64,000 nt of DNA, from assembly GCA_046292385.1 (NCBI GenBank), contig JBKBRF010000002.1:107643-171642 (forward strand), given 5' to 3'. Position 1 is the stretch's first letter. Every line of letters starts with the position of its first letter. The stretch comes from Armatimonadota bacterium. Lineage in GTDB: Bacteria > Armatimonadota > SYMT01. The position numbers are program-made. Positions 36,001 to 39,000 of the stretch are shown here, one piece after another.

Positions 36001-39000
36001 TGCGGAGCCTGCCGGACACGCTGCTCGTCTTCGACCGGGAGCCGCGGCTGCTCTCCGTGACTCCGGAGGACGGCTGCCCGTTCGGGGCGCCGGGAGAGCT
36101 GCTCGGAAGGGGCTCGGACGATCCTGCCTGGCGCCTCGCGGGCGCTGACCCGCTGGGGGTGCGGCGGGTGCTGCGGACCGGCGGCCCTCTCGCCCCCTGG
36201 GAAGCGGAGTGGACCGGCAGCCGGGAGCCGCGCACCCTCTCCCTCGCGGCCGCCCCGCTGCAGGGCCCCGGCGGGCAGCCTCTCGGGGTGGTGGTCGCCG
36301 CGCGGGACGTAACCGGGCTCCGCGGCCGGGAGGAGGAGCGGGAGGCGCGAGAGCGGCTGGAAGAGCTTTCCCGGCGCCTGGTCGAGGAGCTGGAGGCGGA
36401 GCGCGCCCGGCTCTCGCGGGAGCTGCACGACGCGGTCGGCGGCGGCCTCGCGGCGCTCGGGCTGCTCCTCGCCGGGGACGCGGAGCCCGGCGCGAGAATT
36501 GCGGATGCGACCGCCGCGGTCCGGGAGCTGCACGCGCGGGTGCGGGAGCTGGCCCAGGAGCTGCGCCCGAAGGTGCTGGACGAGCTGGGGCTGCTGCCGG
36601 CGCTCTGCTGGCTGGCCCACCGGTACCGCGCGGCCGGCCTGGAGGTCGCGGTGACCCACCGGAACACCGGCGAGCGCTGGGAGCCGGAGGTCGAGACCGC
36701 CTGCTTCCGCATCGCGCAGGAGGCGCTGGCGAACGCCGCCCGCCACGCGGGGGCCGCCGCCGTAACGCTCCACCTGGAGGGAACCCCCTCCAGCGCGCGG
36801 CTGTGGGTCCAGGACGACGGCCGCGGCTTCGACCCGGACGCTCCCCGCCCCCGGAGCACCGGCCTGGCGGGAATGCGGGAGCGGGCGCGGCTACTGGGGG
36901 GAGCCCTGGTGGTGGAGAGCGCGCCGGGCGCCGGAACGTACGTGGAGGTGGAGCTCCCGCTGCTCCGCCAACCGGGAGCCGGAGGAGATCGATGCCCATG
37001 AATCTGGAGCTTCCAGTGCGGGTACTGCTGGCGGACGACCATCCGCTGGTGCTGGACGGTCTGCGCCTGCGGGTGGAGGCGGACCGCCGCTTCCAGGTGG
37101 TGGGGCAGCTCACCAACGGACTGGAAGTGGTGCCCGCGGTGCAACGGCTCCGCCCGGAGCTCCTGCTGCTCGACCTCACCATGCCGGGCCTCACCGGCGG
37201 GGAGATCCTGCGCCAGCTCAACCGCCGCTTTCCGCGCACCCGGGTGATCGTCGTCTCCATGTGGGCCGACCCGGTCACCGTCGCGGAAGCGCTGCGCAAC
37301 GGCGCGTGGGGTTACGTCGTTAAGGAAGCGGGAGCGGAGGCGGTATCGCAGGCGCTCGCGGCGGTGCTGCGGGACGAGCAGTACCTGAGCGCGCCGCTGG
37401 ACGAGCACGAAGTGCGGTGTCAGCTGGCACGGCTCCGGGCGCAGGTGCCCCGCGCCGAGACGCTGACCCCGCGGGAGCGGGAGGTGCTGAAGCTGAGCGC
37501 GGAAGGCCTCTCGAACCCCCGGATCGCGGAGCGGCTCTTCCTGAGCGTCCGCACCGTGGAGAGCCACCGCGCGCGCGTGCTGCGGAAGCTGGAGCTGACC
37601 GACCAGACCGACCTGGTGAAGTACGCCATCCGGAGCGGCCTGATCCCGCCGCCGCAGGAGTAGAGACTGAGTGGGAGAGTGGGCGCAAGGGGGAGTGGGA
37701 GAAACCGACCGCGTGGGCGGTGATCCATTGGCGCAGAGCACAACTATCCCCGAGCGCCATCGAGTAAGAGTAGGAGCACGAGTAGGAGTAGGAGTCCCCG
37801 TCCCGTGAGGTTCGGATTCATCCCTCATCCTTCATCCCTCATCCCTCGACCTCCCCCACTCTCGCGCTCTCCCACTCAGTCAAATTCGACGGAGTCGATC
37901 CGATGTCCGAGCTAGTTACCGGTCCGACGCAGCCGGCAGACCGCGTGCGGAAGTTCCCCTGCAAGCAGTGCGGGGCGAACCTGGAGTTCGCGCCGGGGCA
38001 GCAGGTGCTGGAGTGCCCGTACTGCGGCTTCCGGGAGGAGATTCCGGTCACCCCGGAGGCGATCCGGGAGTACGACCTGGAAGACGCGCTCCTGCGACTG
38101 CCGCACACGGAGGGCTGGGGGACGGAGCGCCGCTCGCTCCAGTGTGAGAACTGCGGCGCCGTCACCACCTTCGAGGAAGGGCAGGTGGCGGGCGACTGCG
38201 CCTTCTGCGGGTCGAGTAAGGTGGTCGAGCGCGACTCCGCCACCAACGTGATCCGGCCGGAGAGCCTGGTGCCGTTCTCCGTGAGCCGCGAGCAGGCGGT
38301 CGGGATGTTCCGGAAGTGGATCTCCGGCCTCTGGTTCCGGCCCAACAACCTCCAGCATGCCGGCCAGCTCGCCAAGATCACCGGCGCCTACCTGCCGTTC
38401 TGGACCTACGACGCCTTCTCCAGCGCCTACTGGACGGCCGACGCCGGCTACCACTACTGGGAGACGGAGACCTACTGGGAGACGGGACCGGACGGCAAGC
38501 AGGAGCAGCGGACGCGCCAGGTGCAGAAGACCCGCTGGGTCCCCGCCTCCGGCCAGCGGCAGGACTTCTTCGACGACGAGCTGGTCTGCGCCTCGAAGGG
38601 CCTGCCGCCCAACCTGATCGGGGGGATCGCCCCGTTCGACCTCGGCCGCCTCGCCCCGTATGAGGCGAGCTTCCTGGCCGGCTTCACCGCGGAGGAGTAC
38701 CAGATCGACCTGAAAGGCGGCTGGCTGGTCGCCCGGGAGCGGATGGAAGGGGAGGTCTACCGCCGCTGCGCGGGCGACGTGCCGGGCGATACCCACCGCA
38801 ACCTGAGCGTGAACACCGCCTTCAGCCAGATGACCTTCAAGCACCTGCTCCTGCCGGTCTGGGTAGCGGCCTACCTCTACGAGAACCGCAGCTACCGCTT
38901 CCTGGTCAACGGCCAGACCGGAAAAGCCTCCGGGGAGGCCCCGCTGAGCTGGTGGAAGATCGCCGGCTTCACCCTGCTGATGGTCCTGCTCGGCCTCGGC

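What a model noticed while it worked through the whole genome (the two positions that open the first line are those of the whole stretch)
37668..37903. Lineage-specific intergenic foldback elements built from inverted arrays of 7-8-nt tandem repeats around an 8-nt junctio [...]
The intergenic DNA of this genome is filled with several families of palindromic elements. Their arms are tandem arrays of heptamers or octamers, strand-asymmetric, often nested, and joined by a recurrent 8-nt motif. They sit mainly at gene 3' ends, often starting at the stop codon. The tested form is essentially absent from the nearest relatives. Other examples: C9:118555-118684, C17:120400-120580, C49:2911-3061, C62:11422-11977.
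Evidence so far: - 1173 of 1623 arrays of 7-nt or 8-nt units lie in the 18.3% of the genome that is non-coding. The top unit families are 114 of 114, 104 of 106, 79 of 80 and 60 of 60 intergenic. - There are 180 inverted array pairs. - One family has 51 copies with a conserved palindromic core of about 102 nt. - Hairpins of 25 to 28 bp fold at -49 to -82 kcal/mol. - The junction motif occurs 574 times, 386 outside genes. Its reversed word occurs 27 times, 14 outside genes. - 109 elements lie between convergent genes and 37 between divergent genes, of 375. The background is 637 and 813 such regions. - A 15-nt word has 40 copies here and 0 or 1 in 30 relatives. A 21-nt form was found once each in 4 genomes amo [...]
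(Added by a program. Inside this text positions count along the whole contig: contig position 107,643 is position 1 of the stretch shown here. "Call 12" and the like, gene names such as g00115 and contig names such as C1 are that model's own, and its searches are not shown. The text may have been shortened before it was handed on; [...] marks where a part breaks off. The agent that wrote the report below was given it as the finding of a first reader that could run no searches.)

Follow-up and report, generated by a model that had tools for sequence, protein, structure and literature searches.

The report
Dispersed palindromic repeats with heptamer arms
This gene spacer holds one copy of a non-coding, nested-hairpin repeat that is scattered at gene ends throughout this bacterium's genome; it resembles known bacterial repeat elements (cyanobacterial heptamer repeats, REP and miniature transposon-like elements) and is not a wholly new kind of thing.

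Summary
Window 37665-37881 is a nested foldback. It has outer 31-nt inverted arms of GAGTGGGA-type units. Inside lie a (GAGTAG)n array, a short core, the 8-nt GGTTCGGA and a (TCATCCC)n array. It fills the spacer between a LuxR-type response-regulator gene and a zinc-ribbon gene.

- 7-nt arrays are 74% intergenic and 8-nt arrays 59%.
- There are 176 inverted array pairs.
- GGTTCGGA occurs 574 times, 376 of them intergenic.
- Arrays are enriched between convergent genes and depleted between divergent genes.

The target is not a local oddity. It is one copy of a composite dispersed repeat with at least 19 copies at 75-91% identity, sharp inverted termini and no target duplication. It shows no bias to the transcribed strand.

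The word GGTTCGGATTCATCC is close to genome-specific. Heptamer-array foldbacks as a kind are not: they are as dense in other genomes of the same phylum and in Anaerolineae MAG loci.

The best reading is a family of REP/BIME-, MITE- and STRR-like non-autonomous repeats tolerated in 3' and intercistronic spacers. Any RNA-level effect is inferred, not shown.

One feature is unexplained: the G-rich arm lies 5' in 154 of 176 pairs, and in 22 of 29 pairs in other genomes.

The parts
36992..37663 (+). Upstream gene: response regulator (receiver + LuxR/GerE HTH). Its stop codon TAG is at 37661-37663, 1 nt before the element.
   Evidence: Pfam Response_reg 1.6e-22 and GerE 1.5e-19; sequence.
37665..37695 (+). 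Outer left arm. It is G-rich, built of degenerate GAGTGGGA units, and starts with the terminal inverted repeat ACTGAGTGGG.
   Evidence: Inverted repeat I1, 31 nt, 81% complementary. TRF period 8, 4.2 copies, 37669-37702. The terminus is shared by 13 paired copies.
37696..37761 (+). Internal spacer of the composite. It varies between copies and holds a short local stem (alignment columns 56-59 with 68-71).
   Evidence: 13-copy alignment and pair counts. One pair switches between CG (7 copies) and GU (5 copies).
37762..37795 (+). (GAGTAG)n array, 5.7 copies, G-rich. No complementary array lies in this spacer.
   Evidence: TRF. Conserved in all 13 aligned copies. The same array type occurs in G005, G006 and G026.
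37796..37808 (+). Short conserved core (CCCCGTCCCGTGA here, SCCCGTMCCGGGA in most copies) that forms a small hairpin just 5' of the junction.
   Evidence: Invariant CCG...CGG columns 161-163 with 178-180 and 167-168 with 173-174 in 13 of 13 copies.
37809..37816 (+). Junction motif GGTTCGGA.
   Evidence: 574 genome sites, 376 of them intergenic. Commonest of 840 same-composition words in intergenic DNA. Invariant in the 13 aligned copies.
37818..37847 (+). (TCATCCC)n array, 4.3 copies, C-rich, directly 3' of the junction.
   Evidence: TRF. 59 of 376 intergenic junction sites are followed by this array type. The same arrays occur in G010, G016 and G005.
37851..37881 (+). Outer right arm. It is C-rich, built of CTCCCACT-type units, and ends with CCCACTCAGT(C).
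   Evidence: Inverted repeat I1; termini.
37903..39036 (+). Downstream gene: zinc-ribbon protein of no curated family. Its ATG lies 21 nt after the element, with a GGAG upstream.
   Evidence: ORF list. Only a sub-threshold DUF1451 hit. Five relatives start with the same residues.
30815..30904 (.). Another element in the window: (GCAGGTT)n - CCGAACC - loop - (AACCTGN)n foldback between convergent genes.
   Evidence: TRF; sequence.
35472..35556 (.). Another (GCAGGTT)n ... (AACCTGN)n foldback, directly after the fucose isomerase gene.
   Evidence: TRF; sequence.
19207..19521 (.). Mosaic spacer between convergent genes. It holds (GGGGATG)n, the junction motif in reverse, (CTCCTW)n, GGCTCGGA-(TCATCCC)n, (GAGCAG)n, a hairpin and (TTTAGCC)n.
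   Evidence: Sequence; TRF.
39037..39364 (.). Module of a different family: TCCGAACC-nnATTCACC-(RCAGAGNN)n, duplicated in tandem (44-nt period), with its inverted partner.
   Evidence: TRF 39058-39143; sequence. 67 of 376 intergenic junction sites are of this type.

Best explanation
WHAT IT IS. The target is one copy of a non-coding, non-autonomous dispersed repeat about 215 nt long. It belongs to a large mosaic population of such elements in this roughly 7-Mb, 69% G+C genome. The genome is probably Armatimonadota, judged on one enzyme's best hits only.

HOW THE ELEMENTS ARE BUILT. They are assembled from interchangeable modules: a G-rich array of 6-8-nt units, a short hairpin, the 8-nt GGTTCGGA, and a C-rich array. 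These are often nested inside outer arms that are arrays themselves. Whole composites have been copied around the genome.

WHAT IS SHOWN: copies share the order of unit variants and have sharp inverted termini.

WHAT IS INFERRED:
- Spread needs an enzyme acting in trans. That enzyme is not identified.
- Insertion takes either orientation, and copies survive where they do no harm: after stop codons, between convergent genes, and inside operon spacers.
- Once transcribed, an element folds into a long hairpin whichever way it is read. It most likely acts as E. coli REP elements and cyanobacterial STRR hairpins are thought to act: a 3'-end or intercistronic structure that slows exonucleases and partly attenuates readthrough.
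- The repeat arms probably arise and change by slippage, and they let the stem re-pair in shifted registers.
For: DISPERSAL AS A UNIT.
- BLAST of 37664-37902 against the genome gave 19 scored matches out of 310 candidates. Near full-length copies have 75-91% identity, for example C28:10236-10431 (89%, query 5-198) and C5:19254-19468 (81%, query 3-217).
- A 13-copy alignment has 72% mean column identity, with every module in the same order.
- 13 copies carry paired termini ACTGAGTGGG...CCCACTCAGT, 91-423 nt apart.
- A second family of about 235 nt shows sharp drops in conservation at both ends. It exists with two alternative inner modules.
- Assembly contigs of the best-holding run break at the elements. 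Summed depth there is 430-1890 against about 60 elsewhere, as expected of multi-copy repeats.

PLACEMENT.
- Arrays lie in 24.8% of convergent spacers (175 of 705), 15.6% of tandem spacers (443 of 2846) and 10.2% of divergent spacers (88 of 863).
- In tandem spacers the median distance is 18 nt from the upstream stop and 93 nt from the next start.
- The 19 copies of the target's family lie in 10 tandem, 6 convergent and 3 divergent spacers.

RANDOM ORIENTATION.
- Motif strand against gene strand: 116 same, 109 opposite.
- Unpaired arrays: G-rich on the sense strand 236, C-rich 226 (p = 0.68).
- Fold energy: sense strand more stable in 89 elements, antisense in 106, of 196 (p = 0.23).

GAIN AND LOSS AT ONE SITE. 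The spacer before the orthologous zinc-ribbon gene holds foldbacks of other units in L106, L108, L129 and L109. It holds none in L107 (13 nt) or L118 (about 60 nt).

STRUCTURE KEPT. 93.8% of 503 pair cells form standard pairs across the 13 copies.

PRECEDENTS.
- STRR heptamer hairpins lie between co-transcribed hupS and hupL in cyanobacteria (PMC2670836, one passage read).
- REPs lie downstream of genes, between convergent and co-directional ORFs (PMC3733652, abstract).
- REP325 acts both as a partial terminator and as an mRNA stabiliser (bioRxiv 10.64898/2026.03.23.713779, abstract).
Against: - No mobilising enzyme was found. The two clear Y1 (RAYT-like) transposase genes are flanked by their own unrelated hairpins, not by arrays. 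No DDE_3 (IS630-type) gene is present in a 98% complete assembly.
- No target-site duplication is visible at the 13 paired copies.
- No identical or near-identical copies exist. Pairwise identity among 12 copies is 55-80.5%, median 68%. Recent movement is therefore not shown.
- No insertion polymorphism between close strains could be examined, because no genome of the same genus is held.
- Any RNA-level effect is pure inference. No RNA run holds the region.
- Covariation is weak. The RNAalifold covariation term is 0.06 kcal/mol. Paired cells are 93.8% against 92.0% in shuffles, a margin that related sequences can give without any structure.
- The model does not explain why the G-rich arm is 5' in 154 of 176 pairs. 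It also does not explain why one 8-nt word joins unrelated arrays.
Confidence: 0.55

Rival explanations
1. Host-selected transcription terminators. On this view the array foldbacks are this lineage's U-tract-less, bidirectional terminators, kept by selection at gene 3' ends.
For: - The elements hug stop codons and are enriched between convergent genes.
- They form very stable hairpins in both directions.
- Canonical hairpin-plus-T-tract sites are scarce in window 28001-48000: 2 found against 5.6 +/- 2.8 in shuffles.
Against: - The target ends 21 nt before the next start codon, which leaves no room for a promoter.
- In relatives L106, L108 and L129 the foldback abuts the start codon of the same gene. 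In L107 the same two genes are 13 nt apart, which suggests co-transcription.
- In G010 a (GGGATGA)4...(TCATCCC)4 foldback sits 15 nt before the next ATG, inside what reads by eye as an NADH-dehydrogenase operon (gene identity not tested).
- A full terminator at such places would silence the downstream gene.
- No T-tract follows the stems.
- 3 of the 19 copies of the target's family, and 10% of divergent spacers, carry elements.
Confidence: 0.15
2. Arrays of protein-binding sites. On this view each 7-8-nt unit and the GGTTCGGA word are recognised by a DNA- or RNA-binding protein, for example a nucleoid protein as proposed for BIMEs or a multi-domain RNA binder. The palindromy would be secondary.
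For: - GGTTCGGA is invariant while the arrays on either side differ.
- It is the commonest of 840 same-composition words in intergenic DNA.
- The same units recur in distant genomes: (TCATCCC)n in G010 and G016, and AATACGC and AAAGGCT in MAG loci of other phyla.
- The absence of strand bias would fit a duplex-DNA reader.
Against: - At least 95 different heptamer units form arrays of 3 or more copies. That is too many for one reader.
- The share of units in common with other genomes is close to chance: 8 of 61 against about 4.9 expected.
- GGTTCGGA is not at array junctions in G016, although that genome has more arrays. Three of its 11 motif sites were viewed and none lay next to an array.
- No candidate protein was identified.
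Confidence: 0.1
3. Plain simple-sequence repeats. On this view the arrays arise independently in place by polymerase slippage, which is known to favour 7-nt units. They are merely purged from coding DNA because 7 and 8 are not multiples of 3.
For: - Mrazek et al. 2007, as summarised in PMC4679880 (Introduction read) and PMC4692102 (Introduction read), found heptanucleotide repeats to be the commonest long simple repeats in most genomes, more so in large, G+C-rich ones.
- Periods 6, 9 and 12 are mostly coding here, while periods 7 and 8 are not.
- Many arrays are single and unpaired.
Against: - Slippage does not explain 176 inverted pairs against 23 direct pairs.
- It does not explain the conserved order of unit variants and non-repeat spacers among at least 19 copies, or the shared junction word and termini.
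- Periods 5, 10 and 11 are also not multiples of 3, yet they are only 15-30% intergenic.
Confidence: 0.1
4. G-quadruplex-forming repeats of the kind described in Xanthomonas and Nostoc.
For: - Several G-rich units carry GGG tracts: GGGATGA, GAGTGGGA, AGGGTCT, AGGGTTT.
- About four units per array is common, as in PMC4692102 (abstract).
Against: - The commonest units (GCAGGTT, ATTGCGT, AAAGGCT, GAGTAG) have no GGG tract.
- In paired elements the G-rich arm has a complementary partner that would compete with quadruplex folding.
- There is no strand preference relative to genes.
Confidence: 0.03

Closest known systems
STRR (short tandemly repeated repetitive) heptamer sequences of filamentous cyanobacteria
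   Same: - Both are tandem 7-nt units, intergenic, and able to form hairpins.
- Both are found between co-transcribed genes (hupS-hupL in cyanobacteria).
- Function is unknown, possibly transcript stability (PMC2670836, one passage read; PMC4692102, Introduction read).
   Different: - The elements here lie in a different phylum.
- At least 95 unit types occur here, rather than the three I recall for STRR (not checked in any call).
- Here the arrays are the arms of composite dispersed repeats with conserved non-repeat cores, inverted termini and a common 8-nt junction.
- I found no statement of the G-first arm polarity in the papers read. That is not a full literature check.
REP / BIME / REPIN elements with their RAYT transposases (Enterobacteria, Pseudomonas, Stenotrophomonas)
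   Same: - High copy number, extragenic and palindromic.
- Mosaic combinations in alternating orientation.
- Enriched after genes and between convergent or co-directional ORFs.
- No target duplication.
- Proposed roles in mRNA stability and partial termination (PMC3733652, PMC2817692 and bioRxiv 10.64898/2026.03.23.713779, abstracts read).
   Different: - The arms here are tandem arrays of 25-40 nt, not a single 20-40-bp palindrome.
- No GTAG/CGTC-tagged unit could be defined.
- The genome's RAYT-like genes are flanked by other hairpins, not by these elements.
MITEs (miniature inverted-repeat transposable elements)
   Same: - Size of about 90-420 nt.
- Terminal inverted repeats, no coding capacity, multiple diverged copies, and nesting.
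   Different: - No target-site duplication.
- No autonomous partner was found.
- The inside of the element is built from tandem repeats.
GGGNATC heptamer repeats of Xanthomonas and Nostoc (Rehm et al. 2015, PMC4692102)
   Same: - Heptamer arrays over-represented in non-coding DNA, with about four units.
- Depleted between divergent ORFs and located within 50 bp of stop codons (abstract read).
   Different: Those are single direct arrays of one G4-forming unit with a strand preference. The elements here use many units, most of them not G4-capable, arranged as inverted pairs and without strand preference.
TAACTGA direct repeats of marine Beggiatoaceae (MacGregor 2015, PMC4679880) and the (GATAGRA)n satellites of Chloroflexus aurantiacus (PMC6749651)
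   Same: Both are intergenic heptamer arrays with a patchy distribution across phyla. The authors take them to be scattered or transposed through the genome (abstract, Introduction and passages read).
   Different: - The Beggiatoaceae repeats lie just upstream of start codons and are almost never inverted (1 indirect among 170 sets).
- Here the arrays lie after stop codons, and 176 pairs are inverted.

Membership tests
REP / REPIN (RAYT-mobilised) | A RAYT (Y1 transposase) gene flanked by the repeat in inverted orientation | tested here: not met
   5 PF01797 matches. The two strong ones (C51, C22) are flanked by other hairpins, and no array or GGTTCGGA lies within the flanks of any of the five.
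REP / REPIN (RAYT-mobilised) | A single 20-40-bp imperfect palindrome with an unpaired GTAG or CGTC tag at one end (PMC3733652, abstract) | tested here: inconclusive
   A short CCG...CGG hairpin preceded by ...GTAGGAG is invariant in 13 copies. It is only 3+2 bp, and the 'tag' is part of the (GAGTAG)n array. The long stems are arrays, not a 20-40-bp palindrome.
REP / REPIN (RAYT-mobilised) | High copy number, extragenic, mostly after genes and between convergent or co-directional ORFs | tested here: met
MITE | Terminal inverted repeats | tested here: met
   ACTGAGTGGG...CCCACTCAGT in 13 paired copies. The outer arms of the target are 81% complementary over 31 nt.
MITE | Target-site duplication flanking each copy | tested here: not met
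   The dinucleotides outside the 13 paired copies are not direct repeats. In the 235-nt family a constant TA at both ends cannot be told apart from element sequence.
MITE | A related autonomous element that encodes the transposase | tested here: not met
   No DDE_3 gene in the assembly. No long copy carrying the termini was seen. Other transposase families were not searched, and insertion sequences are often missing from draft assemblies.
STRR-type heptamer repeats | Tandem 7-nt units, intergenic, many loci, able to form hairpins | tested here: met
STRR-type heptamer repeats | Occurrence in heterocystous cyanobacteria with the STRR unit sequences | tested here: not met
   The genome's best protein hits are to Armatimonadota-labelled MAGs. 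The units differ from the STRR units as I recall them; no call compared them.
Intrinsic (Rho-independent) terminator | G+C-rich hairpin immediately followed by a T/U tract | tested here: not met
   No T tract follows the target stem. The consensus scan of 28001-48000 found no site at any element.
G-quadruplex heptamer repeats (GGGNATC type) | Four or more G-tracts of at least 3 G in one array | tested here: not met
   For the target, the complement of the (TCATCCC)n array has three GGG tracts and one GG. The commonest units genome-wide lack GGG.

The most novel reading that the evidence does not exclude
Heptamer-array foldbacks may be a cross-phylum class of element with a built-in polarity. 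The G-rich arm is 5' in 154 of 176 pairs here and in 22 of 29 pairs in loci from other genomes, including other phyla. On this reading the polarity is the footprint of a dedicated, strand-specific way of making them. One example would be an enzyme that extends or copies a G-rich single strand and then folds it back, with GGTTCGGA as the recognition or turn-around site in this lineage. That would differ from ordinary slippage plus transposition, and it would give the 35-year-old STRR puzzle a mechanism.
Probability: 0.12. Interest if true: 0.8.

Novelty: new variant of a known kind. Interest (0 to 1): 0.5.

Why it matters
Over-representation of heptamer repeats in bacterial spacers has been known since the STRR reports and the 2007 survey of long simple repeats. 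No mechanism or function has been agreed.

This genome offers an unusually rich and well-structured case:
- about 890 arrays;
- 176 inverted pairs;
- composite families with conserved cores, termini and one shared junction word.

Three results constrain any explanation:
- whole composites are copied as units;
- the elements take no account of the direction of transcription;
- the arms have a strong G-first polarity, which also holds in other phyla.

For annotation, the finding has two practical consequences. These repeats break short-read assemblies, and they seed spurious ORFs.

If the elements tune 3'-end stability or readthrough as REPs do, they are a source of regulatory variation in poorly known phyla (Armatimonadota, Chloroflexota).

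Tried and rejected
- **Expression.** No RNA holder is listed among the 16 runs returned, so expression could not be examined.
- **Laying contigs of four DNA runs.** Contigs stop at the elements, and the listed 'joints' connect different copies of the repeats. Nothing usable emerged on excision, empty sites or unit-number variation. Parts without cover say nothing.
- **Rfam.** In window 30000-48000, at E up to 1, there were only two sub-threshold plant/animal miRNA look-alikes on other palindromes and nothing at the target.
- **Plasmid and phage collections.** No match to the 239-nt element.
- **RAYT link.** Rejected.
- **IS630-type partner.** Not found.
- **RNA-level strand selection.** Sense against antisense fold energy and G-U pair counts show no difference.
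- **Rho-loading or G-quadruplex readings that need a strand preference.** No preference was found.
- **Covariation.** Only a marginal excess over shuffles. It is not used as support.
- **Idea that the same heptamer vocabulary is shared across phyla.** 8 of 61 foreign units are shared against about 4.9 expected by chance. Only the two top-family hits are suggestive, and that comparison was made after the fact.
- **GGTTCGGA in G016.** It is about twice the chance level there. The 3 of 11 sites I read lie in coding-like sequence, not at arrays.
- **Taxonomy.** It rests on one enzyme's best hits. I did not test further markers.

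
Full report
**What is at the coordinates**

The finding lies in the 239-nt spacer between two genes on the + strand. 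The upstream gene is a response regulator (receiver plus LuxR/GerE domains; stop codon TAG at 37661-37663). The downstream gene is a 377-aa zinc-ribbon protein of no curated family. My own gene caller put the second gene's start at 37945. Five metagenome relatives begin with the same residues at the ATG that corresponds to 37903, so 37903 is the start.

The element runs from 37665 to 37881. That is 1 nt after the stop codon to 21 nt before the next start. In order, it contains:
- an outer G-rich arm of degenerate GAGTGGGA units (37665-37695);
- a variable spacer;
- a (GAGTAG)n array (37762-37795);
- a short core;
- GGTTCGGA (37809-37816);
- a (TCATCCC)n array (37818-37847);
- the outer C-rich arm (37851-37881), which is 81% complementary to the first over 31 nt.

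Either strand folds better than all 200 dinucleotide-preserving shuffles: -102.3 and -110.5 kcal/mol, z -3.2 and -3.6. The two inner arrays are not complementary to each other.

**The genome-wide claims**

The window lies in a draft genome of 7.04 Mb, 91 contigs and 68.9% G+C. I made independent gene calls with a codon-usage model trained on long ORFs. This gave 5682 genes and 83.4% coding DNA.

Counts of TRF rows that are intergenic:
- period 7: 767 of 1032;
- period 8: 462 of 785;
- period 9: 293 of 1840;
- period 12: 97 of 1133;
- periods 5, 10 and 11: 15-30% intergenic.

The commonest unit families are almost wholly intergenic: AACCTGC 119 of 121, AATACGC 98 of 101, AAAGGCT 79 of 80 and ACTCTCCC 58 of 58.

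There are 176 inverted pairs of arrays with complementary units within 250 nt, against 23 direct pairs.

It has 574 sites, 376 of them intergenic; the reversed word has 27. A fairer control is the set of 840 words with the same base composition. In intergenic DNA GGTTCGGA is the commonest of them, at 376 against a median of 33 and a 95th percentile of 77. In coding DNA the motif is also far commoner than its reverse. There, 129 of 198 sites lie deep in long genes with no array nearby. For coding DNA, therefore, the reversed word is a poor control.

'Filled' overstates the case. Arrays occupy 3.7% of intergenic bases, and 968 of 3774 spacers of 60 nt or more hold an array or the motif.

**Placement**

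Arrays of 7-8-nt units lie in 175 of 705 convergent spacers (24.8%), 443 of 2846 tandem spacers (15.6%) and 88 of 863 divergent spacers (10.2%). In tandem spacers the first array starts a median 18 nt after the upstream stop (49% within 15 nt). The last array ends a median 93 nt before the next start. My start calls are imprecise, as the 37945/37903 case shows. The motif sites show the same pattern: 106 convergent, 225 tandem and 37 divergent. The intergenic lengths in those classes are 179, 622 and 303 kb.

**What the target really is**

BLAST of the 239 nt against the genome gave 310 candidates. The tool scored 19 of them, and all 19 matched. They include near full-length copies at 75-91% identity.

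An alignment of 13 copies has 72% mean column identity. Every module appears in the same order, including the non-repeat spacer, the short CCG...CGG hairpin, the invariant GGTTCGGA and the order of unit variants within the arrays. Thirteen copies have paired termini ACTGAGTGGG...CCCACTCAGT, 91-423 nt apart. The dinucleotides outside them are not direct repeats, so there is no visible target duplication.

A second family of about 235 nt has sharp drops in conservation at both ends. It begins TAGTACTCCGTCAG and ends CACCACTA. It exists with two alternative inner modules: a (GCAGGTT)n-hairpin-GGTTCGGA-(AACCTGN)n palindrome, or an unrelated 31-nt loop.

The junction motif joins many array types. 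Of the 376 intergenic sites, 59 are followed by TCATCCC arrays, 59 by AACCTGN and 32 by CTTTAGC. Another 67 are preceded by (CTCTGCG)n-GGTGAA, and 152 are of other kinds. The 43 nt 3' of the motif are C-rich in 262 sites and G-rich in 93.

So these are mosaic, modular dispersed repeats that were copied as units. They are not arrays that grew in place. Copies are old or fast-evolving: pairwise identity among 12 copies is 55-80.5%, median 68%.

**Tests of function at the RNA level**

A strand-specific RNA role would predict a bias relative to the upstream gene. Such roles include a Rho-loading site, an RNA quadruplex or a single-strand binding site. No bias was found.
- Motif orientation in tandem spacers: 116 same, 109 opposite.
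- Unpaired arrays: G-rich on the sense strand 236, C-rich 226, p = 0.68.
- Among 196 multi-array elements in tandem spacers, the sense transcript is the more stable in 89 and the antisense in 106 (p = 0.23). G-U pair counts are equal, 850 of 9431 against 861 of 9467.

Across the 13 copies, 93.8% of 503 pair cells are standard pairs. That is only slightly above the 92.0% in shuffles that re-deal partners between copies. The RNAalifold covariation term is 0.06 kcal/mol. The pairing is inherited and kept, but compensatory change is not demonstrated.

No T-tract follows the stems. A consensus scan of 28001-48000 found two weak terminator-like sites, against 5.6 expected, and none at an element.

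**Evidence against a full terminator**

The target leaves 21 nt before the next start codon. In metagenome relatives whose zinc-ribbon protein is 74-78% identical, a different upstream gene is followed by foldbacks made of other units.
- L106 and L108: (GGTGTTCA)n...(TGAACACC)n.
- L129: (GGCGTTG)n...(GCCCAAC)n, which starts inside the stop codon.
- L109: another palindrome.

These end 5-10 nt before the same start codon. In L107 the two genes are 13 nt apart, and in L118 about 60 nt apart, with no element.

In G010, which belongs to another family of the phylum, a (GGGATGA)4-loop-(TCATCCC)4 foldback begins in a TGA stop codon and ends 15 nt before the next ATG. By eye the setting reads as a respiratory-complex operon; I did not test the gene identities.

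Elements therefore sit between genes that are probably co-transcribed, and orthologous spacers gain and lose them.

**Distribution**

One conserved enzyme (fucose isomerase) has its best hits, at 80% identity, to MAGs labelled Chthonomonadaceae and Abditibacteriaceae. The genome is therefore probably Armatimonadota. This rests on one protein.

The word GGTTCGGATTCATCC has 40 copies here, 1 in G002 and none in the other 199 genomes of the phylum that were searched. The full composite matched only in G000. Its array parts, however, matched in 5 of 40 other genomes: (TCATCCC)n in G010, G016 and G005; (GAGTAG)n in G005, G006 and G026; GAGTGGGA-type arrays in G006.

| Source | Sample | Arrays per 100 kb (period 7-8, 3.5 copies or more) |
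|---|---|---|
| This genome (888 arrays) | whole genome | 12.6 |
| G005 | 200 kb | 5.0 |
| G001 | 100 kb | 0 |
| G010 | 129 kb | 15.5 |
| G016 | 112 kb | 20.5 |
| Anaerolineae/Chloroflexota-labelled MAG loci | 295 kb | 12.2 |
| Other Armatimonadota-labelled loci | not noted | 1.7 |
| Verrucomicrobiota-labelled loci | not noted | 2.9 |
| Bacillota loci | not noted | 0.5 |

These are small samples centred on one gene or on first contigs. In G016 the 8-nt word is about twice the chance level. The three of its eleven sites that I read are not at arrays.

The kind is therefore patchy but widespread. The composites and the junction use of GGTTCGGA are what is specific to this genome.

**Search for a mobilising enzyme**

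Five matches to the Y1 transposase family exist. The two strong ones are flanked by their own inverted hairpins. One hairpin is a GTAG/ATAG-tagged type with 23 copies, which makes a canonical REP-RAYT pair. Neither gene is flanked by arrays or by the junction motif. No DDE_3 (IS630-type) gene is present. Other transposase families were not searched. No match to the element exists in the plasmid or phage collections, and no Rfam family matches.

**An unexplained regularity**

In 154 of the 176 inverted pairs, the arm with more G than C lies 5' of its partner. There are 14 with the opposite order and 8 ties. Because the pair is a palindrome, the same is true on both strands.

The rule holds outside this genome. 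Of 29 pairs found in 2.05 Mb of loci from other genomes, 22 are G-first, 5 C-first and 2 tied. These loci include ones labelled Anaerolineae, Verrucomicrobia and Bacillota, as well as G010 and G016. Several pairs come from the same genome, so they are not independent.

I considered selection against exposing a C-rich, Rho-loading arm before its partner is transcribed. However, unpaired C-rich arrays on the sense strand are as common as G-rich ones, which speaks against that idea. A polarity inherited from the way the palindromes are made, such as fold-back copying of a G-rich strand, remains possible and untested.

**Comparison with what is known**

- Heptanucleotide repeats are the commonest long simple repeats in most bacterial genomes and are commoner in large, G+C-rich ones. 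This is the finding of Mrazek 2007 as summarised in the Introductions of PMC4679880 and PMC4692102, which I read.
- Cyanobacterial STRR heptamers form hairpins between co-transcribed genes, and their function is unknown (PMC2670836, one passage).
- Xanthomonas and Nostoc GGGNATC arrays lie near stop codons and avoid divergent spacers (PMC4692102, abstract).
- Chloroflexus aurantiacus carries scattered (GATAGRA)n satellites (PMC6749651, passages).
- REPs and BIMEs are mosaic extragenic palindromes after genes, mobilised by RAYTs. At least one acts as both partial terminator and mRNA stabiliser (PMC3733652, PMC2817692 and bioRxiv 10.64898/2026.03.23.713779, abstracts).

Two full-text searches turned up no paper on such elements in Armatimonadota or on heptamer foldbacks in Chloroflexota. 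The library lacks most subscription journals, and I saw no supplements.

The elements here behave like REP/BIME and STRR elements. They fail the defining tests for REPIN membership (no RAYT association) and for MITE membership (no target duplication, no autonomous partner).

**Verdict**

The elements are best described as a new variant of known bacterial intergenic repeats: composite, nested, dispersed palindromes whose arms are heptamer or octamer arrays. Their spread as units is shown. Their mover and their effect on transcripts are inferred. The G-first polarity and the shared junction word are the parts that deserve follow-up.

Noticed in passing
G000:C22:55627-55965 and flanks (outside the window): A canonical REP-RAYT pair. 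A Y1 transposase gene is flanked by inverted GTAG/ATAG-tagged hairpins (CCGGGGGTCAGCGCAGCGCAACCCCCGG), which have 23 copies genome-wide at up to 2 mismatches. A second Y1 gene at C51:25920-26261 is flanked by GCGAGGGGTTGAAAACCCCTCGC, which has 2 copies.
   Followed up: partly
window 63956-63978: A poly-G run that ends the window next to a 10-N scaffold gap. Genome-wide, 22 of 29 G/C homopolymer runs of 12 nt or more abut an N gap or a contig end. They are sequencing or scaffolding artefacts, not biology.
   Followed up: yes
window 39058-39143 and 39037-39364: A 44-nt tandem duplicate of the module TCCGAACC-nnATTCACC-(RCAGAGNN)n, with its inverted partner. The 'TTCACC(GCAGAGG)n' module also occurs in metagenome relatives L109 and L121.
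   Followed up: partly
window 32700-32840 and 50050-50200: Another repeat family: long palindromes built on GCGAAAGCAAGC...GCACTCCACA. Rfam gives only a sub-threshold plant miRNA look-alike at 32714-32834.
   Followed up: no
G000:C62:11422-11977: Four tandem copies of a 139-nt unit that itself contains short GGGTGTAGCGT-type arrays.
   Followed up: no
window 37903 vs 37945: The simple codon-usage gene caller missed the true start of the zinc-ribbon gene by 42 nt. Repeats next to starts and stops can shift gene calls, and 30 of the 198 in-gene motif sites have an array within 60 nt.
   Followed up: partly
L043:18863-18900, L023:11768-11867: Two of the three commonest heptamer units of this genome (AATACGC and AAAGGCT) also form arrays in MAG loci labelled Anaerolineae and 'uncultured bacterium'; one of these is an inverted pair. 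Overall sharing of units is near chance (8 of 61 against about 4.9 expected), so this comparison is post hoc and only suggestive.
   Followed up: partly
L131 (G010:C56:8262-8350) and L129:1240-1325: In relatives the stop codon of the upstream gene is itself part of the first array unit (TGA in GGGATGA; TAG in GTAGGCGTT). The foldback ends 5-15 nt before the next start codon, and no Shine-Dalgarno sequence is visible.
   Followed up: no
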